From IMG/VR virus record IMGVR_UViG_3300020021_000011, positions 1 through 59,354 of that record: DNA of 59,354 nucleotides. One strand, 5' to 3'. Origin of the DNA: a virus. Lineage: Duplodnaviria > Caudoviricetes. Each line of letters begins with the position of its first letter. Position 1 is the first letter of the stretch. Below are positions 20,737 to 42,109 of this stretch, piece by piece. The notes under the pieces were generated by a model that was not told where the DNA came from, searched no databases, and was given only the letters and a program-made list of their open reading frames with translations. Both the position numbers and the translations under genes were made by a program.

Positions 20737-20742
20737 GTTAAC

Positions 20743-20976: not shown

Positions 20977-20978
20977 AT

Positions 20979-22871: not shown

Positions 22872-22904
22872 TGTATATCCTCAATCTTTTCTATATTATA
22901 TGTA

Positions 22905-24455: not shown

Positions 24456-24500
24456 TATTCAACTTTCTCACTTGTAATTCTATATATATGCGCTAGATTC

Positions 24501-25454: not shown

Positions 25455-25478
25455 GTTTTATCCTATATTAAGAAATTA

Positions 25479-25506
25479 GTGAGTTTTATACTTGCCCACC
25501 ACAAGT
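25479..25506 (-). ncRNA. H-type pseudoknot in the 3' UTR of the capsid/decoration transcript
   Basis: Minus strand ACUUG-UG-GUGGG-CAAGU-AUAAAA-CUCAC: S1 ACUUG/CAAGU, S2 GUGGG/CUCAC. Confidence 0.5.
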
Positions 25507-25520
25507 TCGTTCACAGGAGA

Positions 25521-26009: not shown

Positions 26010-26027
26010 ATTATGTTATCCTTTCAA

Positions 26028-26951: not shown

Positions 26952-26993
26952 TAGATAGACTCCTTTGTTATAGGGCTTTTATACCCTGTTAAA

Positions 26994-27881: not shown

Positions 27882-27939
27882 AATTAATCCTTTAGAGTTG
27901 CAAAGCAAGTATCTAAGGTACATTTACCTTTGAAAGCCT

Positions 27940-28425
27940 CTATGAAGAGGGTGTTTCACTTTGTGTTGGTTGTGCAGCTTGAGAGGACTGAGCCTCAGCG
28001 GGTGCTTGATTTGCCGCAGAAGTACTCGTTGGAGTACTAGCATTCATTGCCTGTTGATCTTCCTGTAAAGCTTGTCCACCTTGTGGGACTGAACTACGTG
28101 GAACGATTGAGGCCATTTTAGTTGGGTCAGTTAATGGTTTGAAGTAATTATAAGCTTCGACTCCGCCTACTATACCCATTAATACTGCTGTTTCTGGTGT
28201 TAAATAATGATTTACAAACGCTTGTTGTATTGGTGGTAAACTATTAAGTCTTTGTTCAAGCTGTTGGTGTATCATCTGTTCTTTAGATATACCCATGCTA
28301 GGATCTGAAGCTCCTTGTGGCTGAGTAGCATCTGGGGCATTACTCTGATCTTGTGGCTGCTGATTACTCTGCATATTCATAGGAATAGTAGAAGCTTGAG
28401 TAGAGGGGCGCTGTGGAGAAATCAT
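27940..28425 (-). CDS. Hypothetical Gln/Pro-rich structural-block protein
   Basis: Start overlaps the previous stop. Confidence 0.6.
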   Translation of the reverse strand: MISPQRPSTQASTIPMNMQSNQQPQDQSNAPDATQPQGASDPSMGISKEQMIHQQLEQRLNSLPPIQQAFVNHYLTPETAVLMGIVGGVEAYNYFKPLTDPTKMASIVPRSSVPQGGQALQEDQQAMNASTPTSTSAANQAPAEAQSSQAAQPTQSETPSS

Positions 28426-29639
28426 TATGCTGCTTTTCCTGTTGGTGTATTGACTGGTACATTAAGAATACCTCTACCTTGAGTATTAGAGGTTGCTACA
28501 GTAGGAGTCATGAAATTATTTGTATTACCATTTTGACCATTAGCATATAATGACGTAGGATTAGCTATAGCATTCTGTAAATTAAAGTTAGGATCGTAGA
28601 ATGCACTACTATTTATATGATTTAATTGTTGTTTTAAAGCATCTGGTATATTATATTGCTGCATAACTTCTTTACTTACAGCATCATTTAATGATCCGCC
28701 AGTAGTACCGCTCTTAAGAGTAGAGTCATATTTAAGTCCACCATTAATTAAATCAGAACCTACTTTAATACCATCTCTCTGCCCTACTGTAACCATAATA
28801 TTACCACCTTTACCCTGATCTGTAGGTGTAGCACCATTAGCTAGAAGAAACTGTGCTAGATTTGAGGCTCCTATTTGTTCAGTGTTTCTAGTTGCAGCAT
28901 TTGTAGGGCTATATTCTGAACCAGTTCCACTCTGGGTTCTGGCATATACATCATTTACTTGTCCGGTGGATATATTAACACCACCATTTTGAGTCATATC
29001 AGATGGAGTATTATTACCAAATAGTCCGCCTATAGTAGATCCAACTACTATACCGATACCTCCACCTATTGGCCCACCAAAGATACTACCAATTGCACCA
29101 CCAATTGCACCACCTATCTGCCCACCTTGAGGATTTCCACCAGTCCATCCAGCTATCTGTCCTCCATATGAATACCCAGCATAAGCAAAAGCAGCAGGAA
29201 CAGCAAAATCAGATAATGTAGCACCAGTCCATGCTGGAGCAGTAGTACCAGCTGTGCTAGGAGCAGCTAAGAACGCATCAGAACCACCTACACCAGTACC
29301 AATAGACCCACTTAGGTTAGCAGTAGCACTAGCACCACTAGCAGTAAGAGATGTACCGGCAACTGTACCTAAATTAGTGTTACCCCATGCATTAATAGGA
29401 GCTGTAACATTACTTGAGAACCACCCATTATTAGTTATAGCACTAGTAGGTACGTGGTTAAGTACACTATCTGTAGCTTGATTACCTAATTGCTGCTGTG
29501 CTTGTACATTCTGATTAGAGATTTGTTGTTGAGCACTACTAGTCGAGGGAGTAGTTCCAGATATAGGACTTTGTGCCTGCATATATGGCAGTGCAGTTAC
29601 AGTAGGTTGATCAATAGGATTTAATATATTAGTCGCCAT
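28425..29639 (-). CDS. Gly-rich virion-associated protein
   Basis: Glycine-zipper segment GGAIGGAIGSIFGGPIGGGIG. Confidence 0.6.
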   Translation of the reverse strand: MATNILNPIDQPTVTALPYMQAQSPISGTTPSTSSAQQQISNQNVQAQQQLGNQATDSVLNHVPTSAITNNGWFSSNVTAPINAWGNTNLGTVAGTSLTASGASATANLSGSIGTGVGGSDAFLAAPSTAGTTAPAWTGATLSDFAVPAAFAYAGYSYGGQIAGWTGGNPQGGQIGGAIGGAIGSIFGGPIGGGIGIVVGSTIGGLFGNNTPSDMTQNGGVNISTGQVNDVYARTQSGTGSEYSPTNAATRNTEQIGASNLAQFLLANGATPTDQGKGGNIMVTVGQRDGIKVGSDLINGGLKYDSTLKSGTTGGSLNDAVSKEVMQQYNIPDALKQQLNHINSSAFYDPNFNLQNAIANPTSLYANGQNGNTNNFMTPTVATSNTQGRGILNVPVNTPTGKAA

Positions 29640-29859
29640 TATTTATAGCATCCTGCATACGATCTGGTAATTCTTTAATGATTCGCACTATGGCCAACTT
29701 CCCCTGACTGCGGAGCAGTTCCAACTCCGATGTTGCCACCTCCACTTCCCATAGTATCTCCAGGGTTAAATTGTCCACTAGGATTTTCAGAGCTGCTTGA
29801 ACCTCCGGCTTGAGGAGAGGACTGAGTTTGTTGGCTAGGATTCTGTCCATTTTGACCAT
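29629..29859 (-). CDS. Small protein downstream of (and overlapping) the portal gene
   Basis: ELLRSQGKLAIVRIIKEL motif typical of the post-portal gene. Confidence 0.7.
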   Translation of the reverse strand: MVKMDRILANKLSPLLKPEVQAALKILVDNLTLEILWEVEVATSELELLRSQGKLAIVRIIKELPDRMQDAINNGD

Positions 29860-31939
29860 TGGCGGCTCCTATAATATCTGCATATAATTTAGCAGTTGCT
29901 GGATCATTTATAATATCTTTAGGTTTAAGTCCAAGCGCTCTAACTAAATCAGTTAATACACCATCAAATTTAACAAATGGCGCTACATTAGGATTAGAAG
30001 CTACCTGAAGTAATGATAGAAGTCTCTGTGATTGCACTTCTTTCTGCATTAAGGCTTGAGTACCTTTAGCAACAATCTTTATATTACCACGTATTTCTGG
30101 TTTATCATCATTAAACTGCATATTCCAGTAGAAATAAGCTTTACCTAATGGTTCAATGATGAAATAATCAAAATTCTTAATTACAGTTTTAATATTTAAG
30201 TTAGCAGCCGACATAAGCATAGACATACCAGCGGCAGTACGACTAGTTCCAGTAACACCAGACTGACCATAAGAATAACTAGGTTGTCCAGCTTCTTCAT
30301 CAGCAATTTGACGTGCTTTATCATAAAATTGTACATGAGACTGTGCTGTATTAGGAATTGTTATACCGTACACACTTTGACCAGGTGCACCGCCTTGTTT
30401 ACGGAATATCTTACCTGGATAAAGAGTCATATCCTGTCCTGGAACAAGTTGATTCTCGTTAACTTCAAATATACAATTACCAGCAAATCTAAGATTATCA
30501 ATAGCCATACGCCAGTGACCATTCATAAGGTCTTGAGCATCACGGATATTCTCAGATAATCCTATACCCCATATTTGATAAGGGTGTTCTTCATACGGAA
30601 CTATATAGTATGGTAATCTATTAGGAGTAAATGGATTAAGAGCTACTCGTAATACTTCACCTTCAGCTACCCATACATTAACCTGTATCTGATCTTCCAT
30701 TTTAAGTAAAGTATCTTCATCAGCTATATCTAAGCCCCTGATCATTTCTTTATCAAGGAAACCCCAATATTCAAATACTTCATATCTACGATCATCAATA
30801 GTAGCTAAAGTCTGGTCACGTATTATGTTCTCCCAGAATTTACGTTCATGTCTGGCACCTTTACGTATAAGTCTATCTATAGCATCATGATCAAATAACT
30901 TCTGTTTCTTGAGTCCTCTAACAAGAGTTTCAGACATTAAATGTCGTTCAATAACATACGAAGCTTCAAATATATTCCTAGCATTAGGGTCTGGGTACAG
31001 AGACCACACAGATGCCCAGCTAACTCTTGGAGCTAACTTCTTCTCTGGATTATATGTTATCTTACCACTATCATCTCTATCCCACTTATGAATAGTATCT
31101 TCAATGGTAAATGGGCCTTTCATAGCTCCAGTACCAAAGATAACACACTCAAGTATAGCATTATTGAGGTGCCTATCTGCGTGTCCCTCAGTTAATTGAT
31201 CTTTAACTAGATCTTCAAGTGCTGAAGCAGCTAATTTAGCAGGATGTATTTCAGGAAACATCTTCTCATTAGGAGATGGACCATCTTGTACCTTCTTACC
31301 CTGAAGTAAGTTAGAGAATTTCTGTTGTAGTCCACCTAATAGAGTTTTCTGTGTAGCTCCAGGAGGTATTTGTTTATTATCACCAGCATAACCTATAATA
31401 TCAGCTGGATTAATATCTGGCATACTAGCAGGAGTTATAGTTACAGTATCCGCTATACCTTCTGGTTGATTTTCAGGTTCATAAGATATAGGGAAGTCAT
31501 CTTCTCCCCATAGTATTTCTCTTAATTGTCCATAAGCAGCTACATTCTTAGCTTTAGTAATCTTTACAAATGCTTCTGATGCTTGTGGATTACGTTCCTG
31601 TAACTTAGCAATCTTCTGGCGTTCAGCAGGAGAATATTCGCCACGATGCTGATAATATGATTTAATCCAGATATCTTCTGTAACACGTCTAGCAGTTTCA
31701 GCAAACTTGAATCTCTGGTTTACAAGAGCATAAATACCAGATAGATTCTTCTGTTTACCTACATCTGCTTCAGACATATTAAACATATTGGTTGCAGCAT
31801 CATTATCAGTTTTACCAACGCCAGCATCTTCAGGTTGCCCATTACCAGAATCTGTGAAACTAGATAAAGCTTTAGAAGCCTGGTTTAATCCAGCCTCTAA
31901 TCCTACACCCATTATATTACTATTACCAGAAATCGCCAC
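29675..31939 (-). CDS. Portal protein
   Basis: FVKITK, FGTGAMKGPF, YPDPNA, IERH, EYWG, NPFTPNRLPY, YPGKIFRKQGG, RTAAGMSML. Confidence 0.93.
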   Translation of the reverse strand: MAISGNSNIMGVGLEAGLNQASKALSSFTDSGNGQPEDAGVGKTDNDAATNMFNMSEADVGKQKNLSGIYALVNQRFKFAETARRVTEDIWIKSYYQHRGEYSPAERQKIAKLQERNPQASEAFVKITKAKNVAAYGQLREILWGEDDFPISYEPENQPEGIADTVTITPASMPDINPADIIGYAGDNKQIPPGATQKTLLGGLQQKFSNLLQGKKVQDGPSPNEKMFPEIHPAKLAASALEDLVKDQLTEGHADRHLNNAILECVIFGTGAMKGPFTIEDTIHKWDRDDSGKITYNPEKKLAPRVSWASVWSLYPDPNARNIFEASYVIERHLMSETLVRGLKKQKLFDHDAIDRLIRKGARHERKFWENIIRDQTLATIDDRRYEVFEYWGFLDKEMIRGLDIADEDTLLKMEDQIQVNVWVAEGEVLRVALNPFTPNRLPYYIVPYEEHPYQIWGIGLSENIRDAQDLMNGHWRMAIDNLRFAGNCIFEVNENQLVPGQDMTLYPGKIFRKQGGAPGQSVYGITIPNTAQSHVQFYDKARQIADEEAGQPSYSYGQSGVTGTSRTAAGMSMLMSAANLNIKTVIKNFDYFIIEPLGKAYFYWNMQFNDDKPEIRGNIKIVAKGTQALMQKEVQSQRLLSLLQVASNPNVAPFVKFDGVLTDLVRALGLKPKDIINDPATAKLYADIIGAANGQNGQNPSQQTQSSPQAGGSSSSENPSGQFNPGDTMGSGGGNIGVGTAPQSGEVGHSANH

Positions 31940-31946
31940 TTATAAC

Positions 31947-32102
31947 CTATTTCTTTTTATATTTAAGAATAGCTTTATCTACCTTCGTATCCTTCTTAGA
32001 ACCTTCTTTAAATCCAGTAGCTTTATCAACTACTTTATCTAGTTTAGAAGATTCAAACTTCTTCATGCCGTCCATCTTATCTTTCGATTTCTTAGCTTTC
32101 AT
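31947..32102 (-). CDS. Small Lys-rich protein (51 aa)
   Basis: MKAKKSKDKMDGMKKFESSK...; AGGA upstream. Not in the ORF track. Confidence 0.55.
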   Translation of the reverse strand: MKAKKSKDKMDGMKKFESSKLDKVVDKATGFKEGSKKDTKVDKAILKYKKK

Positions 32103-32104
32103 GA

Positions 32105-32620
32105 TTATTTATTCCTACTAGTAAAGATATTCGTACTAATCTTAACATTATCTGATGTTGGGTTCTTTCCTTGTCCACTTATTGGTAGGCTGCGCTTACC
32201 TTGATAATTAGCACCTTCATTACGCTCCTTTGATGCTTCATCTTTTTCAATGTTACCATTTACTTTCTTATCTTTATCCTTAGCTGCGAATCCACCAGAT
32301 CCGAATACACCATCATTACCCCCTCCTGGCATACCTTCAGCAGTAAATGAATAATCAACTCCAGCCCATACAGACTTATCTACGGAGTTATAATCTTTCT
32401 TACCAGCACCAACTGTATTACCAGTATATTCTATATTACCAAAGATTGATTCATCTTCAATACCCCCAGTAATTTCACCTTTACCTTTTTTAGGAGCAAA
32501 GTCATCGGCCCCCACTTTATTAGGTGTAGATCTTACTGCTGGGCCAAATGTATTATCAGACTCACCATCATTATTGAATCCCCATTTACTATCATTAGGA
32601 GTTCCTTTTGTATCTTTCAT
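32105..32620 (-). CDS. Hypothetical protein between terminase and portal
   Basis: 171-aa Gly/Asp/Lys-rich ORF with AAGGA SD. Confidence 0.7.
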   Translation of the reverse strand: MKDTKGTPNDSKWGFNNDGESDNTFGPAVRSTPNKVGADDFAPKKGKGEITGGIEDESIFGNIEYTGNTVGAGKKDYNSVDKSVWAGVDYSFTAEGMPGGGNDGVFGSGGFAAKDKDKKVNGNIEKDEASKERNEGANYQGKRSLPISGQGKNPTSDNVKISTNIFTSRNK

Positions 32621-32647
32621 TTACTTATTCCTTTAAATTAATTTTAT

Positions 32648-34315
32648 TTAATACCCGAATGATTCACTTACTACTACGTTATTAGTTCCATACCCACCAT
32701 TATCTGCTCTCCATAAATAATCATTAGCTACCTTAGGTCTAGTCATAATAGCATATCTTAAAGCATCATAAGCATGATCCTGAACATCAGTATTAACGTC
32801 TTCAGGATTTCTATCATCTACAGGAAGAGATGATAACTCACTTATAATCTCTTTACAAGTATCAAATACAAATAGTCTAGGTCTTTGTGTATATTTATCT
32901 TTAGCTAGATATTCATGAATTTGCATTTTACCAGCCACACGAGACCCGGCACTAGAATCTGACATTCTCCAATAGCACCCAACATTATGCATTTCTTCTG
33001 CAACAGAAGGGCCATCTTGCCCTCTTTTAGCCCAGGTAGAACAGTCCAGTACCCCGTATCTAACGCGTTCTCCAGCTTCCATCTCAAGTACTTTTTTACC
33101 GAATTGAGAGGCTACTAATTTCTCTTTAGCTTTATTACCATTCTCTACCATTTCTCTATAAACATAGAGATTATTATCATAATCTACTGCTACCCATACA
33201 CAAACAGCTAAACTTGAGTATCCCCAATCACAGCCCCTAAATCTAAGCCAGTTATTAGGAATCTTAAATGGTTGGACAACATGAGTTTTCTTATTGAACT
33301 CTGAGAATGCTGCACCGGAGGCTGTATCCCAATCGCCATAACGCCATTGTTTCTTTAGAGTTTCATTCTCTATAGCTTCTAAAGATACAATATAATCTGG
33401 ATCATTCTTCATAAGGATAGAGTTATCTTCTACCGTACTATGTATCCATTTACGAGTGATAGTTCTTTCAACTCCATTTACTATATACTTTAGAGTAATA
33501 CGAGTATTAGACTCACCTCTATCTACAAATCGTTCTTTAACCCACCTATGTCCTGGGCCACCGGGATTTCCAGTAAAACGTAACTGGCGTTTAAGAGTAG
33601 GATCTGTAGTACGCAATGATTGTTTTAAGGTTTCTAGTATGTAGTCTGAATCATACTGGGTTAACTCATCAACCCCTAGCCATACATATTCCTGGCCTAT
33701 ATATTGATCTAAATCTTGTTCTGTATCACAGTACCCGAATTCTATAGTAGCACCTGAAGGAAATACGAACATCTTCTCCTGTTCTTTCCATCTAGTACCA
33801 GGTATTGCCTGTAAGTAAATCTTTCTTGCTCTTGACATTAATTCTCGTAGGCGTTTCATTGTCTTACGTATAATTAAGCCTTTAAAATTACCATTATTAA
33901 CGTATCTTAGTGGGTCAGCTATAAGAGCATCTGACTTACCACTACCTCTACTACCAGCGAAGAATACTTCTTCTTCAGAGGCCTCAAGGAATGCTATTTG
34001 TGGCTTATTATTAGGATCAGGCTGCCATATAATCTTTCTTGGCTGTACTGGTTCCTGAATTTCTTCAATCTTAACAGGTACTTCTACTTTAACTTCTTTT
34101 ATTACTTCTACAATTCTATCTACAAAGATTTGCTGTGGAACTATAACTTCTTTTATTACTTCTATAGTTTTAATCTTTTTAGCTTTAGCCTGCTCTCGTT
34201 TGAGCTTCTTCTTTTCCTGAAGTAATTTCTGTCTCTCCTGAGACTGTATCTTTGACCGGCTTATAGGTGGAGAAATCAGTTGGGGTTTTGTAGATTCTGT
34301 GTCTTTCGTTATCAT
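32648..34315 (-). CDS. terL: Terminase large subunit
   Basis: Walker A AGSRGSGKS, Walker B LGVDEL, TGNPGGPGHRWVK, DWGYS, DHAYDALRY. Confidence 0.96.
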   Translation of the reverse strand: MITKDTESTKPQLISPPISRSKIQSQERQKLLQEKKKLKREQAKAKKIKTIEVIKEVIVPQQIFVDRIVEVIKEVKVEVPVKIEEIQEPVQPRKIIWQPDPNNKPQIAFLEASEEEVFFAGSRGSGKSDALIADPLRYVNNGNFKGLIIRKTMKRLRELMSRARKIYLQAIPGTRWKEQEKMFVFPSGATIEFGYCDTEQDLDQYIGQEYVWLGVDELTQYDSDYILETLKQSLRTTDPTLKRQLRFTGNPGGPGHRWVKERFVDRGESNTRITLKYIVNGVERTITRKWIHSTVEDNSILMKNDPDYIVSLEAIENETLKKQWRYGDWDTASGAAFSEFNKKTHVVQPFKIPNNWLRFRGCDWGYSSLAVCVWVAVDYDNNLYVYREMVENGNKAKEKLVASQFGKKVLEMEAGERVRYGVLDCSTWAKRGQDGPSVAEEMHNVGCYWRMSDSSAGSRVAGKMQIHEYLAKDKYTQRPRLFVFDTCKEIISELSSLPVDDRNPEDVNTDVQDHAYDALRYAIMTRPKVANDYLWRADNGGYGTNNVVVSESFGY

Positions 34316-34652
34316 CGAGCATAATCTCTTTAAATGGGAAACGATTAAGTAATAGTAATCTTAATCCTTCACTAGATATGGTATGACCAGTATTGGCCAC
34401 TAACCATGTTGATACTTCCTTTAAAGAACAATCTTTTAGATATTCACGAGTCTTAAATAATAGTCTTAATGCTTTAATATCAGGGATACACAATTGCTTT
34501 TTTATGTCAAAAGTATATCCCCAAGGAGTAGTATGTCTTATCATTATTACTGGAAGACCAAGTTGTATAGCCTTAAGCCTATCATGATCTGCTATAGAAC
34601 AGAATGATGGTTTAATCTTTCTAACACTGGCTTTAGTATCAACGTAAGACAT
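34185..34652 (-). CDS. Putative DNA-binding protein upstream of terL
   Basis: PWGY...SLKEVSTWL...GHTISSEGL HTH-like pattern. Confidence 0.6.
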   Translation of the reverse strand: MSYVDTKASVRKIKPSFCSIADHDRLKAIQLGLPVIMIRHTTPWGYTFDIKKQLCIPDIKALRLLFKTREYLKDCSLKEVSTWLVANTGHTISSEGLRLLLLNRFPFKEIMLDDNERHRIYKTPTDFSTYKPVKDTVSGETEITSGKEEAQTRAG

Positions 34653-34664
34653 ATTGAAGCTCTT

Positions 34665-35105
34665 TTACAAAGCTATTGGAAGAGTACGGAAGTAAATACG
34701 TAGCTGAATACTAGGAGCACCTGTACCTGTTACTTCAGCAGTTTTAGACTGCGCTACAATGGCTCCATTTACAGGAAGGACAGTAGCAGCTGCATCAGTA
34801 GAAGATGTAATAGCAGTAGTCTGATCTAAAAAGCCAGTAGTAGGTAAAGCAGTAGTTACTATAGCACCAGACCCATTAGTATATTTAAAATCTATACCAG
34901 CATTAGAACCTATTGTATAAGCAGTACCAGCAGCTTTAGTAGCATATATACGTTCTATAATATGTACAAAGCCAGCTGGGGGAGCAGCTATTACAGAAAT
35001 AGGAGTAGCATTAAGAGTTAACATCTGTGCATTAGTCAGAGTTACTTTTACATACTTCTCAATACGACGATTAGTTGATTTTCTATTAGTTCTTGATAGT
35101 GACAT
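34665..35105 (-). CDS. Putative structural beta-sandwich protein
   Basis: VTLTNAQMLTLNATPISVIAAP pattern seen in virion proteins. Confidence 0.55.
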   Translation of the reverse strand: MSLSRTNRKSTNRRIEKYVKVTLTNAQMLTLNATPISVIAAPPAGFVHIIERIYATKAAGTAYTIGSNAGIDFKYTNGSGAIVTTALPTTGFLDQTTAITSSTDAAATVLPVNGAIVAQSKTAEVTGTGAPSIQLRIYFRTLPIAL

Positions 35106-35143
35106 TTATTGATTCCTTAATGATAATGTACCCTACTAACGTA

Positions 35144-35533
35144 CTATTCTAGTTTCTTTGTTGGGAGAATAACAATACCTTTATCAGCTTTAACTTCAAT
35201 TTCCTGAGTTTCTTTTTTACCGAAACCAGCTCTATCTAGTAAACTATTAGCTGCTTTAATAATATTATCTGCCCCTAAAGTAGTAGGCGTTTCTATGACT
35301 TCTTTTAATTTATTAATAGCATCAGAACTATAGAGAGCCATAAATTCTAAGTTCTTCTCAACTATCTCAACTTTTAGAGTTTTTATAATCTGGTAAGCTG
35401 AAGTAGTATTAGAGTATCCCGCAGCTTCTTTAACAGCATTAATTCTAGCTACCATACCAATTGGTAAACCATCTGCATATATTAAGTCCAGGATAGCTTT
35501 TTGTTTATCGTTTAATTGTGTTTTATCAGTCAT
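35144..35533 (-). CDS. terS: Terminase small subunit
   Basis: LNDKQKAIL, AAGYS, AANSLLDRAG, GIVILP. Confidence 0.8.
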   Translation of the reverse strand: MTDKTQLNDKQKAILDLIYADGLPIGMVARINAVKEAAGYSNTTSAYQIIKTLKVEIVEKNLEFMALYSSDAINKLKEVIETPTTLGADNIIKAANSLLDRAGFGKKETQEIEVKADKGIVILPTKKLE

Positions 35534-35542
35534 AATTTAATT

Positions 35543-35585
35543 AGTATACACTATTTTTAAGTATTTGTCAAGTAAAATCTTTACT
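35543..35585 (-). promoter_or_regulatory. Late promoter with palindromic box abutting the -35
   Basis: Minus strand AGTAAAGATTTTAC-TTGACA, 17 nt, TATACT; 20 bp identical to 40092-40111. Confidence 0.75.
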
Positions 35586-35586
35586 T

Positions 35587-36726
35587 TTAATTAAATGTTA
35601 ATGCTTCATAAGAGGCTACTATAGAACCAGAAGAGTTTAGAGTGGCTGTAATAGTAGTAGCATTAGTTTGTGTTATATTAGGTAATATAGTAGCATGAGT
35701 TGTAGTTGCAGCAGTTGCAGTACTATACCCCAACCAATTACACAGGGTTTTAGTAGTATTAGCAGAAGTAATAGTAGCTGTATTAGATGTAGTAGCAGAT
35801 AAGGTTATGCTACCTCTCTGAGCTATCTGTGATAATACACCAGATACAAATTCAACTACAGAGAAGTTAACGACTATAGCAGCATCTCCCTGGGCAACTC
35901 CAGTTGTAGTAGTTACTGTAGTAGCATTAGTAAGAGTTATTCTTTGTTGATCAGTAGCATTTGTTTCATTTAAATTATTATCGCACCCGGCAAAGAATAA
36001 CATACTATTATTAGTAGTAACACTAGTTATAGCTTGTGTACTCGATACAGAATTATTAGTCCATGATTTACTGAATGCCTGTTTTGCCTGATTTAAAGCG
36101 GCTCCCTGAAATTCTATAACTACAAATCCTGCTATAGATGTACCACTTAATGTTCTAACAGTAGAAGTAACAGTAGTTGCATTAGTTAATACAAGAGTAG
36201 GAGTATTATTACCAAAGTTAAATGTGGCTAATGAACTAGTACACCCTAATAAATGTACTACAGCATTATTTGTAGTTACACTAGTTATAGTAGCAGTAGC
36301 ACTTGTACCAGAAGATACCGTAATAGTCCCAAATTGTACAGACTTAACTAAACTGGCAGTGGCATCAACTACAGCACAATTAACTACACATGCCCCGGCT
36401 GTACCAAGTGCTCTGGTAGCAGTAACTGTAGTTCCTGATATTGATACTCTACAGAATGCCTCTGATTGTACAGCAGTTGCACTTGTAGTATTACCTTGAA
36501 ATATTAAAAAGAATGTTCCAACTGCGGCAGTTACAGTAGCAGTAGCTGAAGTAGATAATGCAGGAATAGTAATACTTACCTGTTGTACAGAATTAATATA
36601 AGTAGTACCGCCAGCTACTTTATTCCAGAAGGTATTAGAAAAAGCTACTATAAACCCATCCTCATTCTTCCATATTCTATGGAGAGCAGTCTGTAAGATT
36701 GGTTTTAATATATTCAATATCTTCAT
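35587..36726 (-). CDS. Thr/Ala/Ser-rich repeated beta-domain virion protein
   Basis: Several internal repeats of VQ.gtIT....sAtATItsV...TNATTVT. Confidence 0.6.
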   Translation of the reverse strand: MKILNILKPILQTALHRIWKNEDGFIVAFSNTFWNKVAGGTTYINSVQQVSITIPALSTSATATVTAAVGTFFLIFQGNTTSATAVQSEAFCRVSISGTTVTATRALGTAGACVVNCAVVDATASLVKSVQFGTITVSSGTSATATITSVTTNNAVVHLLGCTSSLATFNFGNNTPTLVLTNATTVTSTVRTLSGTSIAGFVVIEFQGAALNQAKQAFSKSWTNNSVSSTQAITSVTTNNSMLFFAGCDNNLNETNATDQQRITLTNATTVTTTTGVAQGDAAIVVNFSVVEFVSGVLSQIAQRGSITLSATTSNTATITSANTTKTLCNWLGYSTATAATTTHATILPNITQTNATTITATLNSSGSIVASYEALTFN

Positions 36727-36727
36727 A

Positions 36728-39103
36728 TTAACTAAATGCTGCCTGACCTACTGCAAATATTGATGTACCATCTGATAAGAAAGTAATAATATCCACAGCT
36801 GAAGCTGCTGTGCTTAATATGAACTTAGTTCCACCGGCAAACTTATAAGCAGCTCCCCATGTTATAACTCTACTACCAGTACCATCTTGTGTTATAATTA
36901 AAGTATATGTACCGCCATTAACCATATTAGTAGGGTTACTTAATGTGAAGTTCTGTGCCGGGGTTAATGAGGCTGTTTGTTGTGTATTAAGATTCCATGG
37001 TACTGTAGTACCTGGAGTTAAAGCTGAAGTAGCAAAATATTGCTGCCCTGTCCAGGCATTTACATGAGTTAAATCAAGACTTATAGTACCAGTAGTAGTA
37101 ACAGGGCCTCCAGTTAAGCCAGCTCCAGTAGCTACACTTGTAACTGTACCAGTACCACTTATAGTAGTCCATGTTGGTAAAGAACTTGTGCCCTGATATG
37201 TTAATACTTGTCCGGCTGTTGCGCCAACTGTCGATACAGATTGTAAAGCTCCTGTACTTGTAGTACCACCAACAATAGGAGAATAGGCAGTTACAGATGT
37301 ATCTCCAGTACCTCCATGAGCAACATCTAATGTAGTACCATTCCATGTTCCTGAAGTAATAGTACCAACAGAAGTGAGAGATGAAGTTACTACTGTAGAA
37401 TTAAGTGTAGTACCAGTTAAGGTACCAGCTGGGGATATGACAACATTTCCAGAGGCTGCTGTTATTAATCCTTTACCATTAACTGTAAATGAAGGTATAG
37501 AAGTAGATGAACCAAAACTTCCTACATTACCATTTACTGTAGCTAAAGTTAACTGACCAGAAGAAGTAGGTGTATTAACATCCCCACCTTGAAAGGATGG
37601 ATTTGTGCTCCAGGCCGTAGCTCCAGAACTAAGAAATCTAATACTACCACCTACTGGAATAGTGTATGGAGCTGAGGCTGCCATTCCATTTATAGTATTA
37701 GTTCCATTTGGGTATACCAGAAGTGCATTTGCGCCTTGGTTAATGATAACATAGCCCCCGCGACTTGTATTAGTGACTGGCAATAACACGCCAGTTCCAG
37801 AAGGCGTAGATGTAATTGCAAAATACCCCGGCTGTGTTGACGCTGTTAAAACAGTAGCTGTAGCTTGGTTAGTCCCCGCAGCAGATACACTACTCATTGC
37901 TATATAACTTAAATTAAGACTGGAAGCGGCTGTAATTAACCCCTTACCATTGACAGTAATCACGCTCATTGCTGTTCCAGTACCAAATGAACCAACATTG
38001 GCATTTACTGTAGCTAAAGTAAGAACTGCACTACCAGGCCCAGAAGCTGTTCCATCTCCAGTAAGAGCAGTGATATAACTACCAGAAGCTTGATATTGTG
38101 GTATATTAAGTGTATCAGCAGTAAATGTAGCTGCCCCGGAAGTACCAGTAGTAGTAAGTGTAATAGGTACTTGATAATCTGTATCAGCAATAGCAGCACT
38201 TATAGCTGTACCATTCCCCTTAAGTATACCAGTTATAGTAGTAGATAAAGTAATAGCAGGAGTAGTAGTAGCAGTGGCCACAGTACCAGCAAAACCATTA
38301 GCAGTAACTACAGATACTGAACTTACTGTCCCCGATCCCCCACCTCCTGTAGAAGCTATAGTAATAGTAGTAGCAGTATGAGTAATTGTAGTATTAGCAC
38401 CAGCAATAAATGATTTAAGTTCTGCTACTCTTGGTTTAGCATGAGCTATTATACTAGTTCCTGAACCTATGGAAGTAAGTCTGAAACGATTCATACTACC
38501 AGCACCAGTAATAAAATCTTCTCTAAGACTATCTAATTCTTTAGGATTATATGAATCCCCTTTATCTCCCCTGTCACCTTTATCACCCTTTAATCCCTGG
38601 ATACCCTGCTTACCTGGGATTCCTTGTACACCCTGAATACCATTAGCACCAGTTAATCCTACTTCACCTGGTTTACCATCTCGTTCAATTACTGATTGTC
38701 TTACAATAATAACTGATTTATCTGGTAGCTTATATCTATCTGTATTACCAGTGTTATCTTCTGATTCTTTAAGATCTAAAGTACTAATATGTTTCCAGAA
38801 CTTAGTATTAGTAACTGGTTTATCCATATGATTCATTAAGGATTTATAAACTTTACCATTATTACTTACTACATCACCTTTTTGATAAAGCCCTAGCATG
38901 TTATAAGGTTCTATATCAAGATCTTCTATATCTTTATCAGTATCCTGACTAATTGTAGCTACATGCTCAGCTTCTGGCTCCCAGGCATTACTTATACCAG
39001 GTTCTTTACCCCAGGAATTATCCGCAGCTACCCATACTATATCACCATGAGTAACTATAGCATTTTTAGAATATAAATTATTCTTATTCCATTTATCTGT
39101 CAT
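36728..39103 (-). CDS. Fibre/adhesin: two CBM5/12-like modules, collagen segment, Thr/Gly-rich shaft
   Basis: WNKNNLYSKNAIVTHGDIVWVA and YQKGDVVSNNGKVYKS; 14 G-X-Y triplets; duplicated LTLATVN.NVGSFG...TVNGKGLITAAS; QDGTGSRVITW tip. Confidence 0.75.
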   Translation of the reverse strand: MTDKWNKNNLYSKNAIVTHGDIVWVAADNSWGKEPGISNAWEPEAEHVATISQDTDKDIEDLDIEPYNMLGLYQKGDVVSNNGKVYKSLMNHMDKPVTNTKFWKHISTLDLKESEDNTGNTDRYKLPDKSVIIVRQSVIERDGKPGEVGLTGANGIQGVQGIPGKQGIQGLKGDKGDRGDKGDSYNPKELDSLREDFITGAGSMNRFRLTSIGSGTSIIAHAKPRVAELKSFIAGANTTITHTATTITIASTGGGGSGTVSSVSVVTANGFAGTVATATTTPAITLSTTITGILKGNGTAISAAIADTDYQVPITLTTTGTSGAATFTADTLNIPQYQASGSYITALTGDGTASGPGSAVLTLATVNANVGSFGTGTAMSVITVNGKGLITAASSLNLSYIAMSSVSAAGTNQATATVLTASTQPGYFAITSTPSGTGVLLPVTNTSRGGYVIINQGANALLVYPNGTNTINGMAASAPYTIPVGGSIRFLSSGATAWSTNPSFQGGDVNTPTSSGQLTLATVNGNVGSFGSSTSIPSFTVNGKGLITAASGNVVISPAGTLTGTTLNSTVVTSSLTSVGTITSGTWNGTTLDVAHGGTGDTSVTAYSPIVGGTTSTGALQSVSTVGATAGQVLTYQGTSSLPTWTTISGTGTVTSVATGAGLTGGPVTTTGTISLDLTHVNAWTGQQYFATSALTPGTTVPWNLNTQQTASLTPAQNFTLSNPTNMVNGGTYTLIITQDGTGSRVITWGAAYKFAGGTKFILSTAASAVDIITFLSDGTSIFAVGQAAFS

Positions 39104-39106
39104 TAT

Positions 39107-39445
39107 TTAACTATATAGTATATTTACAGTAATAGCAGTTCCCTGAGCAGTACTTCCTAAAGCAGTAGTAGTCGCAGCTATCTTAATTGAATTAGTAGTT
39201 ATAAATGGGCTACTACCAAATACTATATTAATACTCTGAGCAGCTGGTATACCTATTGATAATTTAGGAACTGTACTGCCAACTGTTACAGAAGCTGAAT
39301 CAAATATCTGTAAGTAAGTAACTGAAGCATTAGGATTATATGCTGTTATAGTATATATAGAACCTCTAGTACTTTTTACAGTAGCAGCTACAGCTAACAT
39401 AGCAGCATTAAGGTATGGTGTAGTAGTAATCTTATATAGAGCCAT
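39107..39445 (-). CDS. Putative structural protein, first gene of the late block
   Basis: YNPNASVTYLQIFD...VTVGSTVP beta-rich pattern. Confidence 0.6.
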   Translation of the reverse strand: MALYKITTTPYLNAAMLAVAATVKSTRGSIYTITAYNPNASVTYLQIFDSASVTVGSTVPKLSIGIPAAQSINIVFGSSPFITTNSIKIAATTTALGSTAQGTAITVNILYS

Positions 39446-39514
39446 TATTAATCTTTCTTTATTATATTTTTACTGAACACATTTATAAACAGTTATATTA
39501 AGTACTTATATATA

Positions 39515-40062
39515 ATACTATATATAAATTATAGACGTAGTTCTTTTTCCGTACACCCCTGTCCCACCATATACCCTTAATAGAGATCTATTAGTATATG
39601 ATATAACATTTATACGGTATTAATAAGGGTATACGTAGATTAACTATGTTTAACTATACTGCTTGTTCTATATATCCCTGAAAGATATAATATGGATAGC
39701 CACTCCACCCCTGTCCTCAACTTCTATGAGAATTCATACTCTATTATTGTTTATAAGCCCTAATAGGTATTAGTAGGTTACAGTACGTCTTGTATAGATA
39801 TACCCCCAGCTACGTACAGCTTACGGGTGGAGCGGAAATACCTTATTGATATAATCAACAGGCCAAAGACTCCCATAGTGTTGGCACGGCACGCTAGTCC
39901 CCTGTATAATTTATTACCTTTAATATCTATGTCGGTTAATACAGGTTAGAGTAGTTTTTATTAAGACAGCGTTTACTCAGGCTGTTAGCTATATATTATA
40001 CCTTCTTCTAAGTTCTCCATTGCTGGCAGATGAGAAGTCCAATATAGTATATAATCTATTCA
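39515..40062 (-). ncRNA. Candidate large structured non-coding RNA / late-operon leader
   Basis: ORF-free; begins just downstream of a consensus promoter; many helices whose G-U pairs favour the minus strand (see findings). Confidence 0.55.
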
Positions 40063-40068
40063 ATGTGT

Positions 40069-40111
40069 ATTATATACTATTTTATATTAAATGTCAAGTA
40101 AAATCTTTACT
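40069..40111 (-). promoter_or_regulatory. Main late promoter with palindromic box
   Basis: TTGACA (40097-40092), 17 nt, TATAAT (40074-40069), preceded by the AGTAAAgatTTTACT palindrome. Confidence 0.82.
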
Positions 40112-40188
40112 AAAGTATAAATATTATACAGTCAAACCTAAAGCTTCGCCAGAGTACTTATAGTTCTATTACAGAAGAATTAATACTA

Positions 40189-40207
40189 TTCAGGTAGGGG
40201 TATAGCT
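40189..40207. repeat. 19-bp inverted repeat, left copy
   Basis: TTCAGGTAGGGGTATAGCT is the exact reverse complement of 52307-52325. Confidence 0.85.
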
Positions 40208-40405
40208 CCTTAGTTGTTATATCGTCTATAACAGGCATTAGAATTAATCCTAGAGGTACAAGTACACCTACTCTACACCTTCTCCTTACTTTAGTATGTT
40301 TGTATATAAAAATCATATAAGATTGTAGTAAATTAGCTGATATATTTCAATATTGACTTGTTGGGTTTTAAATTATAGCTGCTATTATATTGATGTATAC
40401 GCATA

Positions 40406-40440
40406 CCCCAGACCCCCCACATGCCCCTTCCCTTACCCCC
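40406..40440 (-). other. Five G-tracts (G-quadruplex-capable) at the late/early divergence
   Basis: Minus strand GGGGG-TAA-GGG-AA-GGGG-CATGT-GGGGGG-TCT-GGGG. Confidence 0.55.
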
Positions 40441-40530
40441 TTAATATATAAAAGAGTGCTTAAATAATAGGCAGCAATGAATATATGTAGATAAAACAAG
40501 ATGATAGTATTAATAGACAGGGATATATAA

Positions 40531-40546
40531 TGTTCCACGTGAAACA
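40531..40546. promoter_or_regulatory. parS: parS centromere-like site (ParB binding)
   Basis: TGTTCCACGTGAAACA matches the bacterial parS consensus TGTTNCACGTGAAACA exactly; intergenic. Confidence 0.85.
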
Positions 40547-40892
40547 ATGAGAATGATTCTTAATTGCAATATAAATGCTGCACTGCACAATAAGATAAAA
40601 TGATGTACATATAAAGTATATATCTGTAACAATCACTACACATTGAGCTAGGCATTATACAAGTTAAGAAGAGTGTGATAATAATACAACACAAGAGATT
40701 AATCATACATAACTTGTTATAAATAACTTGAAAGAACAATAAAATAGTATATTCGCGCACGTTCTATATAATATAGTATTGGCAAAACTATATATATAAA
40801 TAAAATGAATAATAATGAAAATAATAGTTGCATAAATAGAATATCTTGCTAATATGTATATAAGGTTAATAACACAAATAAGGAATATCACA

Positions 40893-41078
40893 ATGAATAG
40901 TCAAATCATCATACAGAATCTAGTTAAGTCTAATTCATTACAGCTATTACAAATATCTTATAGAAATGCTGTATTACATGATGATAAAGAGGAAATAACA
41001 TGGATTAAACAGGCTATTAGAATAAAGAAAGAACAAGTAGAAGCTAATAATTTATCTAATCATCATAAATACGCATAA
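40893..41078 (+). CDS. Hypothetical early protein
   Basis: ATG (MNSQII) after TAAGGA SD; TTGCAT/TAATAT promoter-like elements upstream. Confidence 0.6.
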   Translation: MNSQIIIQNLVKSNSLQLLQISYRNAVLHDDKEEITWIKQAIRIKKEQVEANNLSNHHKYA

Positions 41079-41084
41079 TATGTG

Positions 41085-41112
41085 TTGCACGAACAAAAGT
41101 ATTTGATAGAAT
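41085..41112 (+). promoter_or_regulatory. Early sigma70-type promoter
   Basis: TTGCAC, 16 nt including TG, TAGAAT; followed by the same ACAAATAAGGAATA RBS block as the previous gene. Confidence 0.55.
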
Positions 41113-41147
41113 GACTATATTGAATATAACAAATAAGGAATATAAGC

Positions 41148-41327
41148 ATGGTTAAGTTAAATAAAACCCAAACTATTATACTTAATGAAATACAGGAAAG
41201 GGGTATGATGTTACAATGCAACATTACTCAACCGTTCAGTCAGAAGCGTAAACAGGCTGATAAGTTAGTCAAACAGGGACTATTATCAAAGACTGAAACT
41301 CACTGGTTTACTACATATAAGGAATAA
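41148..41327 (+). CDS. Hypothetical early protein (59 aa)
   Basis: MVKLNKTQTIILNEIQERG...; TAAGGA SD. Not in the ORF track. Confidence 0.6.
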   Translation: MVKLNKTQTIILNEIQERGMMLQCNITQPFSQKRKQADKLVKQGLLSKTETHWFTTYKE

Positions 41328-41449
41328 GCCAATGACTGAATCAGAAGCTAAATATATAACTTACCGTGATATTGGATTAATGATAATATCAGCCTGTATT
41401 ATGGTAATAACATTTCATTCAATTAACTATATATAGATTGTACAAAGCA

Positions 41450-42109
41450 ATGATAACTAATAAAGAATACTCAAACTTACAACAGGCATATGATTACTTC
41501 AATAATCTATTGTTTGCTAATAAATTACCTCATGTTCTTATAACACTGCAACATGGTAAGAAATACTATGGTTACTATTGGCCTGAGAAGTTTGTTGAAA
41601 GGACTGATGATTCAAGCTCTGTAGGTGAGATAGCACTTAATCCTGACTTATTTGAAGGTAGAACTGATAAAGAAATACTATCAACTCTAGTACACGAACA
41701 GGTGCATGTATGGCAACAAACATATGGCGAACCGGGGAGGAAAGGTTATCATAATAAAGAATGGGGTAGCAAGATGAAAGAAATAGGCTTATATCCAAGT
41801 AATACAGGCAAAGAAGGTGGTAAAGAGACAGGCAGTAAGATGTCACATTATAGCATTAACCCTGGGGTTTTTGAGCGGTACTGTAATATACTATTAGGTG
41901 AGGGATTTAAACTTAACTGGCAGTCATTCATAGACAAGAAAGCAGATAAGAAAAAGAAACAAACCAGAGTTAAATACTGTTGTGCTGGATGTGGATTAAA
42001 TATGTGGGGTAAACCTGACTCTAATATTATCTGTGAAGATTGCTCAGATATCGAGGAACAGGTAATTGTTAAGCTAGTACCTGGTGATTTAGAAGATAAA
42101 GAGGATTAA
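41450..42109 (+). CDS. SprT-like zinc metalloprotease
   Basis: AYDYFNNLLF, EIALNP, STLVHEQVH, YHNKEW; C-terminal CAGC...CEDC. Confidence 0.9.
   Translation: MITNKEYSNLQQAYDYFNNLLFANKLPHVLITLQHGKKYYGYYWPEKFVERTDDSSSVGEIALNPDLFEGRTDKEILSTLVHEQVHVWQQTYGEPGRKGYHNKEWGSKMKEIGLYPSNTGKEGGKETGSKMSHYSINPGVFERYCNILLGEGFKLNWQSFIDKKADKKKKQTRVKYCCAGCGLNMWGKPDSNIICEDCSDIEEQVIVKLVPGDLEDKED

What the first reader, a model, noticed from the sequence alone, without database searches (positions are those of the whole stretch)
39515..40062. About 550-nt structured, ORF-free RNA heading the late operon
Seen: a perfect promoter (40097-40069) fires into about 600 nt with no ORF of 60 aa or more. Minus-strand helices: 5'/3' closing AUACUAUAU/AUAUAGUAU (40050-42/39523-15); ACAGC/GCUGU; CCUGUAU/AUACAGG (39945-39/39907-01); GGGACU/AGUCUU; long-range CCGCUCCACCC/GGGUGGAGUGG (39835-25/39710-00, G-U on minus but A-C on plus); CUAUUA/UAAUAG; UAUACCCUUA/UAAGGGUAUA (39633-24/39579-70); possible pseudoknots CCGUAUA/UGUACGG and AGACGUA/UACGUCU. 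Established: phages encode large ncRNAs of unknown function (ROOL, GOLLD) and phi29 uses a packaging RNA. Inference: a possibly new large ncRNA class co-expressed with morphogenesis genes.
Basis: partly seen in the sequence, partly recalled or inferred. Interest (0 to 1): 0.8.

Follow-up and report, generated by a model that had tools for sequence, protein, structure and literature searches.

The report
Long structured leader before phage tail genes
A soil phage has about 620 bases with no gene between a textbook-perfect promoter and its first virion genes; parts of this stretch fold somewhat better than chance, but no relative could be found, so it looks like a structured mRNA leader and not a proven new RNA class.

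Summary
The sequence observations hold. A 12/12 sigma-70 promoter (40097-40069, minus) reads into about 617 nt with no minus-strand ORF above 32 aa, and all nine quoted helix pairs sit at the stated coordinates.

Folding is moderately better than chance: z -2.55 on the minus strand against -1.34 on the plus strand. The stretch lies in the top 1% of 534 GC-adjusted genomic windows.

The signal comes from local pieces:
- Domain A (39835-39700): z -2.67, about equal on both strands.
- Domain B (39646-39538): z -3.95.
- A 5' hairpin: z -2.0.
- The middle stretch: z 0.1.

The proposed 5'/3' closing helix has pairing probability of only about 0.07. Both domains end in the same 11-mer, GGACAGGGGUG, which occurs nowhere else in the genome.

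There is no Rfam match, no terminator before the first gene and no pseudogene signal. No homologue turned up in any collection I could scan, so covariation could not be tested. No RNA-seq run holds the sequence.

Best reading, at about 0.4: a long structured 5' leader of the first virion-gene unit. A "new large ncRNA class" is neither shown nor excluded.

The parts
40069..40097 (-). Consensus sigma-70 promoter TTGACA-17-TATAAT; the predicted start site is near 40062.
   Evidence: Read and scored 12/12. It is one of six 12/12 sites in the 59-kb genome, all co-oriented with the local genes. My own rough chance estimate is about 0.2 such sites per genome.
39446..40062 (-). ORF-free transcribed stretch of about 617 nt, read here as the 5' leader of the first virion-gene unit.
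   Evidence: No ORF of 50 aa or more on either strand in 39446-40157. Leader ORFs of 32, 26 and 23 aa lack a Shine-Dalgarno sequence. No PHROG or Pfam hit above threshold for the nine longest (30 aa or more) of the 11 stop-free frames of 28 aa or more. Whole-fold z -2.55. GC-adjusted MFE is in the top 1% (5 of 534 windows at or below it).
39955..40062 (-). 5' hairpin domain followed by the small ACAGC/GCUGU hairpin.
   Evidence: MFE -22.5 against -16.4 +/- 3.0 kcal/mol, z -2.02, with 7 of 200 shuffles as good.
39841..39954 (-). Middle stretch without excess structure. It holds the CCUGUAU/AUACAGG and GGGACU/AGUCUU hairpins.
   Evidence: z 0.10, with 100 of 200 shuffles as good.
39700..39835 (-). 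Domain A: a multi-branch domain of four hairpins closed by the 11-bp helix CCGCUCCACCC/GGGUGGAGUGG.
   Evidence: The 146-nt segment gives -44.9 against -34.6 +/- 3.9 kcal/mol, z -2.67, with 1 of 200 shuffles as good. Closing-helix pairing probability is 0.52-0.98. The plus strand gives z -2.48. GC peaks at 0.435 against 0.27-0.29 in the flanks.
39538..39646 (-). Domain B: a long irregular hairpin with alternative pairings of the UAUACCC strand.
   Evidence: The 116-nt segment gives -33.6 against -21.5 +/- 3.1 kcal/mol, z -3.95, with 1 of 200 shuffles as good. The plus strand gives z -2.32. Ensemble diversity is lower than in all but 4 of 150 shuffles.
39706..39716 (-). First copy of the 11-mer GGACAGGGGUG, in the 3' strand of the domain A closing helix.
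   Evidence: The 11-mer occurs exactly twice in the window, both times here. 0.18 matches are expected even with one mismatch allowed, and 1 of 100 shuffles gives two.
39554..39564 (-). Second copy of GGACAGGGGUG, in the 3' strand of the domain B closing helix, 152 nt after the first.
39446..39534 (-). AU-rich spacer without stable structure, carrying the purine-rich AAAGAAAG just before the ATG at 39445.
   Evidence: The 105-nt stretch 39430-39534 folds worse than its shuffles (z +1.25, 185 of 200 as good). No terminator-like site lies here.
39107..39445 (-). First gene of the unit: a 112-aa small beta-sandwich (jelly-roll-like) phage protein.
   Evidence: AlphaFold model from alignment A1: pLDDT 88, all-beta. 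BFVD gives 60 matches at E <= 0.001, mostly uncharacterised phage proteins and some called 'virion structural protein'. PDB gives only weak jelly-roll capsid and Ena-fibre matches.
35587..39103 (-). The 791-aa collagen-repeat tail-fibre-like gene and the 379-aa gene that complete the unit.
   Evidence: PHROG tail-fibre families match residues about 140-300 of the 791-aa protein; the 379-aa protein has no family. An 11/12 promoter-like site (35571-35543) follows in the 53-nt gap before the packaging genes.
39881..39910 (+). Opposing promoter-like site TTGGCA-18-TATAAT inside the leader. If real, it faces the 40097 promoter.
   Evidence: Scored 11/12. Nine 11/12 sites occur in the genome and I estimate about five by chance, so it is unproven.

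Best explanation
The stretch is the long, partly structured 5' untranslated leader of the first virion-gene transcription unit of a lytic podovirus-like phage that uses host sigma-70 RNA polymerase. That unit holds the 112-aa jelly-roll protein, the 791-aa collagen-like fibre and the 379-aa protein.

Shown:
- A consensus promoter.
- About 617 nt without a credible ORF.
- No terminator before the first gene.
- Two locally stable domains (A and B), each ending in the same 11-mer GGACAGGGGUG.
- An unstructured AU-rich run just ahead of the start codon.

Inferred: the leader acts in cis. The two domains with their shared 11-mer would be recognition modules for a phage or host factor, or would fold co-transcriptionally. 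Either way they would set when and how much of the mRNA made from a constitutively strong promoter becomes productive. The route could be transcript stability or processing, elongation control, or access to the start region. The alternative pairings in domain B would suit a switch.
For: - Promoter: 12/12, and one of six perfect sites, all co-oriented with the genes.
- Related marine phages use the same promoter type upstream of TerS (alignment A3).
- ORF-free with no protein-family signal.
- Fold statistics favour the minus strand: z -2.55 against -1.34 for the whole, and -3.95 against -2.32 for domain B.
- The two most extreme GC-adjusted windows among 534 overlap this region on the minus strand.
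- Ensemble diversity is below the shuffles: whole 4/40, domain A 12/150, domain B 4/150.
- More strands take part in helices of 8 bp or more than in the shuffles: 42 against 23 +/- 9, reached by 6 of 200.
- The unique 11-mer repeat closes both domains.
- No terminator-like site lies between 39694 and the ATG at 39445.
- The last 90 nt are unstructured, as expected of a translation start region.
- The downstream genes encode virion proteins.
Against: - No homologue was found, so there is no covariation and no evidence of conservation.
- No RNA data exist.
- All z-scores are modest for one sequence.
- Domain A is equally stable on the plus strand, as a DNA inverted repeat would be.
- The middle 114 nt show no excess structure.
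- Three partners for one strand is not significant (21/200).
- Beyond the 11-mer, the two domains are not clearly similar. The local alignment scores 53 against 29 +/- 5 for shuffles, and 22 of those points come from the 11-mer.
- Terminator-like sites are not enriched in the late region (8 against 9.2 expected), so nothing points to a need for antitermination.
- The leader sits inside a 1.4-kb gene-poor divergent region that could work at the DNA level.
Confidence: 0.4

Rival explanations
1. It is a discrete, stable large non-coding RNA that acts in trans. The RNA would be cut out of the leader by RNases, or ended by a signal I cannot see.
For: A strong promoter and about 600 nt of non-coding sequence in an otherwise compact genome. 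Local domains fold better than chance. No known Rfam family matches, so it would be new. Marine relatives carry a promoter-driven, ORF-free, conserved element of about 370 nt beside their packaging operon, with some covariation. That shows the phage group can carry such units.
Against: No 3' terminator. The global closing helix is not supported (P about 0.07). There is no second member and no RNA evidence. The marine element is not detectably related: nhmmer best E 1.3-1.9, and CM R2 gives no minus-strand hit in the region (the one weak plus-strand row, 39519-39548, has E 8).
Confidence: 0.12
2. It is a DNA-level element of the divergent control region, such as operator or iteron-like sites or part of a replication origin. 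The inverted and direct repeats would then be protein-binding sites, not RNA helices.
For: The stretch belongs to a 1.4-kb gene-poor zone between the diverging early and late modules. That zone also holds a parS-like palindrome, a run of G-tracts and an 18-19-nt repeat shared with 52307-52325. Cumulative GC skew reaches its minimum near 40.5 kb. Domain A folds equally well on both strands. Four of the 13 TATACCC sites in the genome lie within 39570-40204. The 11-mer direct repeat is 152 bp apart.
Against: The consensus promoter transcribes the whole stretch. The minus strand is favoured in whole-fold and domain B statistics. DnaA-box-like sites are not clustered. The GC-skew turn coincides with the switch in gene orientation and so is not independent evidence.
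Confidence: 0.2
3. It is a non-functional spacer, for example the remains of lost genes, and its fold statistics are a chance tail.
For: It is an orphan sequence with nothing to show conservation. The z-scores of -2 to -4 were obtained after choosing domain boundaries. Several quoted pairings are at chance level.
Against: It gives the most extreme GC-adjusted folding signal of 534 windows. The 11-mer is unique and lies at equivalent places in both domains. GC is enriched locally. There is no pseudogene trace. Phage genomes rarely keep 600 nt of useless sequence behind a perfect promoter (general knowledge).
Confidence: 0.25

Closest known systems
Nascent-RNA and leader elements of lambdoid phages: HK022 put RNA, and the lambda PR' leader with Q. 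For HK022 put I saw only the search listing and start of the abstract of PMC9378689; the lambda details are recalled.
   Same: A cis-acting RNA made just downstream of a strong sigma-70 promoter at the head of a long phage operon. It acts on expression of the genes behind it.
   Different: put is about 70 nt with two stem-loops close to the promoter, and it suppresses terminators. Here the structured parts lie 230-520 nt from the start, no terminators are enriched downstream, and no sequence or structure model of put was available to test against.
Leader-embedded immunity RNAs: P4 CI with seqA/seqC, and P1/P7 C4 (recalled from memory).
   Same: An untranslated leader in which one short strand can pair with more than one complementary site on the same transcript.
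   Different: No Rfam family matched at all. The multi-partner pattern here is not beyond chance (21/200). Those systems control lysogenic immunity, and no lysogeny genes were seen here.
ROOL and GOLLD large ornate RNAs and phi29 pRNA. For ROOL and GOLLD I saw only the listing and start of the abstract of PMC12286853; the rest is recalled.
   Same: Phage-associated, non-coding and several hundred nucleotides long, or (for pRNA) tied to morphogenesis.
   Different: No covariance-model match even at E <= 10. Those RNAs are conserved families with dense covariation and global architectures. This one is an orphan with two or three local domains, and it continues into an mRNA.
Conserved ORF-free element of marine HMO-2011-type phages, found here (HTVC033P and nine IMG/VR contigs).
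   Same: It occurs in the nearest characterised phage group (TerL 42-47% identical). It is driven by an invariant TTGACA-17-TATAAT promoter, lies next to the packaging and structural genes, is ORF-free, and shares a short GGUGG..ACAGGGG motif found nowhere else in the 194 loci.
   Different: It is transcribed away from the TerS operon, not into the late genes. It is about 370 nt long. There is no profile or CM similarity to the window. The shared 12 nt may be coincidence and was noticed after the fact.

Membership tests
Any Rfam 15 family. That ROOL, GOLLD, phi29 pRNA, C4, group I/II introns, riboswitches and small ribozymes are among its 4227 models is recalled, not checked. | A covariance-model match at the family's gathering score. 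| tested here: not met
   0 matches in the whole window at gathering score. At E <= 10 in 39000-41500 there were only two chance-level hits, both outside the stretch: a snoRNA and SIB at E 6-7.
Stand-alone sRNA or ncRNA gene | Its own promoter plus a defined 3' end (an intrinsic terminator) before the next gene. | tested here: not met
   The promoter is present. The only minus-strand terminator-like hairpin (39710-39694) is weak and lies inside domain A. Nothing lies between 39694 and the ATG at 39445.
Conserved structured RNA class | Homologues in other genomes with compensatory base changes. | tested here: inconclusive
   No homologue was found: 8 IMG/VR scans, 1 JGI metagenome scan, 2 GTDB scans, blastn against GenBank phages, and nhmmer/blastn/CM searches over the fetched loci.
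Marine HMO-2011-type conserved element | A match to the profile or CM built from 10 copies. | tested here: not met
   nhmmer best E 1.3-1.9, none in register. CM R2 with filters off gives no minus-strand hit in 39446-40100 and a best E of 0.28 elsewhere.
HK022 put-type antiterminator RNA | Two stem-loops that bind RNA polymerase in cis and suppress downstream terminators. | not testable with these tools
   No model was available. Indirectly, terminator-like sites are not enriched in 20000-39999 (8 against 9.2 expected).
Pseudogene or decayed coding region | Residual similarity of stop-free frames to protein families. | tested here: not met
   The nine longest (30 aa or more) of the 11 stop-free frames of 28 aa or more were scanned. 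PHROGs gave nothing below E 0.1. Pfam gave only sub-threshold noise: Wzy at 17 bits against a cutoff of 26.6.

The most novel reading that the evidence does not exclude
The leader is, or releases, a new riboregulator built from two modules of about 110-140 nt, each sealed by a helix ending in GGACAGGGGUG. The modules would recruit a phage or host factor to time virion-gene expression from a constitutive consensus promoter. It might be distantly tied, through the shared GGUGG..ACAGGGG motif, to the promoter-driven ORF-free element conserved beside the packaging operon of marine HMO-2011-type phages. If so, it would mark a previously unnoticed RNA layer in this abundant phage group.
Probability: 0.15. 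Interest if true: 0.6.

Novelty: new member of a known kind. Interest (0 to 1): 0.3.

Why it matters
If the leader really controls virion-gene timing, it would show how a phage without its own RNA polymerase delays late genes that sit behind a constitutive host-type promoter. That question is open for HMO-2011-like phages, which are abundant in the sea and, as seen here, also occur in soil and fresh water. As it stands, the evidence supports only a plausible structured leader in one orphan genome, so the value is moderate. The more promising lead for follow-up is the side observation: a conserved, promoter-driven, ORF-free element in the marine relatives.

Tried and rejected
Known RNA family: rejected. 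tRNA or tmRNA: none in the window.

Homologue hunts that found nothing usable:
- blastn of 39000-41500 against GenBank phages, no match.
- tblastn of the 112-aa protein against the same phages, no match.
- IMG/VR scan with the 112-aa protein: none.
- IMG/VR scan with its family alignment: 39 loci, all distant and mostly high-GC. The ORF-to-ORF gap upstream was at most 230 nt in 36 of the 38 loci where the gene's own ORF was found; the two exceptions (L022, L023; 524 nt) are 67% GC and were not looked at further.
- IMG/VR scan with TerL: 6 loci. The two close ones are 4-7-kb fragments that stop short of the region.
- IMG/VR scan with the TerL alignment: 80 loci at 43-50% identity apart from the close fragment L003 (63%).
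- IMG/VR scan with the fibre protein: collagen-repeat matches only.
- IMG/VR scan with the 223-aa early protein: 10 unrelated contexts.
- IMG/VR scan with the 379-aa protein: none.
- IMG/VR scan with a two-arm helix pattern: one chance hit in a 63% GC contig.
- JGI metagenomes with the 112-aa pair: 2 distant high-GC contigs with no gap.
- GTDB genomes with a 22-mer: none.
- GTDB genomes with the TerL alignment: 5 distant loci.
- nhmmer and blastn of the RNA against all loci held at the time: nothing.
- Single-sequence CM of domain A over 93 sources (850,946 bases): only itself.

Sequencing runs: 7 DNA holders and no RNA holder listed. Laying 4 runs gave only short, near-identical low-depth contigs and one SNP in the leader (39678), so nothing on covariation or expression. 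The parts without cover mean nothing.

Tandem duplication of domains A and B: not supported beyond the 11-mer.

'One strand, several partners' switch: present in the sequence but not beyond chance.

Homology with the marine element: not supported.

DnaA boxes: not clustered.

Alternative genetic code: all three stop codons are frequent in all six frames of 39446-41437.

Literature: the paper search found nothing for 'HMO-2011' with 'noncoding RNA' (0 papers). 'HMO-2011-type' with 'promoter' gave 3 papers, judged irrelevant from the listing and abstract starts alone. I read no paper beyond search listings and abstract starts. Supplements were not consulted.

Full report
What the window is. The 59,354-bp window is a complete IMG/VR virus record with 35% GC. 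Virion and packaging genes run on the minus strand from 39445 down to about 12875. In order they are a 112-aa protein, a 791-aa collagen-repeat fibre, a 379-aa protein, three small genes, the large terminase (32648-34315), the portal (29675-31939), and so on. Early genes run on the plus strand from about 40854. The terminase is 40-47% identical to those of HMO-2011-type podoviruses of marine Alphaproteobacteria, such as Pelagibacter phage HTVC033P, the Roseobacter CRP phages and Puniceispirillum phage HMO-2011. Near-identical fragments occur in soil and freshwater metagenome runs.

Checking the observation. The promoter TTGACA-17-TATAAT is present at 40097-40069 on the minus strand. It is one of six perfect 12/12 sites in the genome: 2378+, 8884+, 9056+, 55343+, 40097- and 21638-. 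All of them point the same way as the surrounding genes. My rough composition-based expectation is about 0.2 per genome, so these are very probably real promoters, and the phage evidently relies on host sigma-70 polymerase. Between the predicted start (about 40062) and the ATG of the 112-aa gene (39445) there is no ORF of 50 aa or more on either strand. The minus-strand ORFs of 32, 26 and 23 aa have no Shine-Dalgarno sequence. All three stop codons are frequent in every frame. The nine longest of the 11 stop-free frames of 28 aa or more give no PHROG or Pfam hit above threshold. All nine quoted strand pairs sit at the stated coordinates.

Is the fold more than chance?
- The 548-nt minus strand has an MFE of -140.6 kcal/mol against -125.6 +/- 5.9 for dinucleotide shuffles: z -2.55, with 1 of 100 shuffles as good.
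- The plus strand gives z -1.34, with 10 of 100 as good.
- I calibrated against real sequence by regressing MFE on GC for 534 windows of 548 nt on both strands, covering positions 1 to about 49.4 kb (the scan was cut off by time). The target lies 2.1 sd below expectation, and only 5 of 534 windows are as extreme. The two most extreme of all are 39346-39893 and 39163-39710 on the minus strand, so they overlap this region.
- Ensemble diversity is also lower than in most shuffles: 4 of 40 as low.

So there is a real but moderate signal that favours the minus strand.

Where the signal sits. It is not one global fold.
- The proposed 5'/3' closing helix has pairing probability 0.05-0.08. UAUACCCUUA/UAAGGGUAUA has probability 0.0, because CGUAUACCCU/GGGGUGUACG outcompetes it.
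- Sliding 150-nt windows pick out only 39850-39701 and 39650-39501.
- Domain A (39835-39700) has four hairpins closed by the 11-bp GC-rich helix. It gives z -2.67, with 1 of 200 shuffles as good.
- Domain B (39646-39538) is a long irregular hairpin. It gives z -3.95, with 1 of 200 as good.
- The 5' 108 nt form a hairpin with z -2.02.
- The 114 nt between (39954-39841) give z 0.10.
- The last roughly 100 nt before and across the ATG fold worse than the shuffles, at +1.25.
- On the plus strand domain A is about as stable (-2.48), while domain B is clearly less so (-2.32).
- GC peaks at 0.435 over domain A, against 0.27-0.29 in the flanks.

A new feature. The 11-mer GGACAGGGGUG occurs exactly twice in the 59-kb genome, at 39716-39706 and 39564-39554 on the minus strand. 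Even with one mismatch allowed, 0.18 matches are expected. In both places it forms the 3' strand of the helix that closes the domain. Beyond this 11-mer, the two 150-nt units are not convincingly similar. The local alignment scores 53 against 29 +/- 5 for shuffles, and 22 of those points come from the 11-mer. A profile of the two units finds no third copy. The UAUACCC strand of domain B can pair with three G-rich sites, but 21 of 200 shuffles reach the same multiplicity. The number of strands that can form helices of 8 bp or more is higher than in the shuffles (42 against 23 +/- 9; 6 of 200 reach it).

What it is not.
- No Rfam 15 family matches the window at gathering score.
- At E <= 10 the 2.5 kb around the stretch gives only two chance-level hits outside it.
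- There are no tRNAs or tmRNA.
- No intrinsic terminator separates the stretch from the 112-aa gene. The only minus-strand terminator-like hairpin is weak and lies inside domain A. Transcripts from the consensus promoter should therefore run on into the virion genes.
- Terminator-like sites are not enriched in the late region (8 against 9.2 expected), so there is no sequence hint that antitermination is needed.

Relatives. This was the decisive test and it could not be completed. Its other relatives are distant domains in high-GC phages. In 36 of the 38 loci where the gene's ORF was found, the upstream gap was at most 230 nt. The two exceptions (L022 and L023, 524 nt) are 67% GC and gave no RNA match. 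I used all eight IMG/VR scans, the JGI metagenome scan and both GTDB scans. They gave either nothing, distant phages, or two close terminase fragments (L002 at 67% and L003 at 63%) that end before the region. blastn against GenBank phages found nothing. nhmmer, blastn and a single-sequence CM over the fetched loci found only the window itself. Public runs hold only near-identical fragments, and none is an RNA run. The element is therefore an orphan in the accessible data. Covariation, conservation and expression are all untested.

Context from the nearest characterised group. In HTVC033P and nine marine IMG/VR contigs, the 670-nt unannotated gap upstream of TerS is conserved at the DNA level. 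It holds two back-to-back invariant consensus promoters. One reads into a roughly 190-nt leader and then TerS. The other, on the opposite strand, reads into a conserved stretch of about 370 nt with no consistent ORF. An RNAalifold structure of 20 pairs has 8 pairs with changes on both sides, and no shuffle out of 500 reaches the observed measures for four of the five, 1 of 500 for the fifth. The caveat is that the structure was derived from the same 10-sequence alignment. This shows that the phage group carries promoter-driven non-coding units beside its packaging genes. The marine element, however, is not detectably related to the window's stretch. The only link is a short motif, GGUGG-N(0-3)-ACAGGGG. 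Among the 194 loci it occurs only in the window's domain B and in five marine copies. I noticed this after the fact and treat it as a lead.

What the leader controls. The 112-aa protein models confidently (pLDDT 88) as an all-beta sandwich. It has many uncharacterised phage look-alikes, a few of them named virion structural proteins, and weak jelly-roll capsid and fibre matches in the PDB. It is followed by the collagen-like fibre and the 379-aa protein. An 11/12 promoter-like site (35571-35543, with the TATACT -10 also seen before TerS in the marine phages) then precedes the packaging genes. The leader therefore heads a three-gene virion unit and not the entire late region.

Interpretation. 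The most economical reading (about 0.4) is a long, partly structured 5' leader acting in cis on this unit. The steps from structure to function are inference: factor binding at the repeated 11-mer, a switch in domain B, control of stability, elongation or start-site access. The rivals are:
- A DNA-level role within the 1.4-kb divergent control region (0.2). That region also holds a parS-like palindrome, a G-tract run and a repeat shared with 52307-52325.
- A chance tail in a functionless spacer (0.25).

Comparisons with lambda PR'/Q, P4 CI, P1 C4 and phi29 pRNA rest on my recall. For HK022 put (PMC9378689) and GOLLD/ROOL (PMC12286853) I saw only the search listing and the start of the abstract.

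Verdict. The feature is real and the statistical support for RNA structure is modest. There is no family and no relatives. The claim of a new large ncRNA class is open, not supported. Interest 0.3.

Noticed in passing
L049:1095-1458 (HTVC033P, minus strand), and the same element in L138, L182, L133, L122, L119, L166, L144, L158 and L109: Marine HMO-2011-type phages carry a conserved ORF-free element of about 370 nt between the upstream gene's terminator and TerS. An invariant TTGACA-17-TATAAT promoter transcribes it, back-to-back with the TerS promoter. A 20-pair consensus structure shows 8 pairs with changes on both sides (no shuffle of 500 reaches four of the five measures, 1 of 500 the fifth). 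It is a candidate new phage ncRNA.
   Followed up: partly
window 2378-2406(+), 8884-8912(+), 9056-9085(+), 55343-55371(+), 40097-40069(-), 21638-21610(-): Six perfect 12/12 sigma-70 consensus promoters, all co-oriented with the local genes. The one at 21638 lies inside the 630-aa ORF.
   Followed up: partly
window 39881-39910(+) against 40097-40069(-): An 11/12 promoter-like site on the plus strand inside the leader faces the consensus promoter. If real, the two transcripts would overlap by about 145 nt (a convergent, face-to-face arrangement). It may be chance, since nine 11/12 sites occur in the genome.
   Followed up: no
window 40400-40450: A run of C-tracts on the plus strand, which are G-tracts (GGGGG, GGG, GGGG, GGGGGG, GGGG) on the minus strand. 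It lies about 300-350 bp upstream of the consensus promoter and could form a G-quadruplex.
   Followed up: no
window 40530-40546: A parS-like palindrome TGTTCCACGTGAAACA in the untranscribed part of the divergent region. An unrelated freshwater run holds this 150-nt neighbourhood with 2 differences.
   Followed up: no
window 40189-40207 and 52305-52325: The same stretch of about 18-19 nt, GCTATACCCCTACCTGAA, appears once on each strand at the two edges of the early region. At 52299-52316 it is part of a GGGTAT/ATACCC hairpin.
   Followed up: no
window 52253-53005: A second large ORF-free gap (753 nt). It is extremely AT-rich with many TATA-type repeats, preceded by a G-rich block (52510-52550).
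   Followed up: no
window 40868-40895, 41123-41150, 41307-41334: Three copies of a roughly 28-nt block ending in AAGGAATA..ATG. This is a repeated ribosome-binding region in front of three small early ORFs.
   Followed up: no
window 39107-39445(-): The 112-aa protein belongs to a widespread beta-sandwich family with the motifs YNPNA and AATTTA.G. In other phages the family is often the C-terminal domain of much larger proteins.
   Followed up: partly
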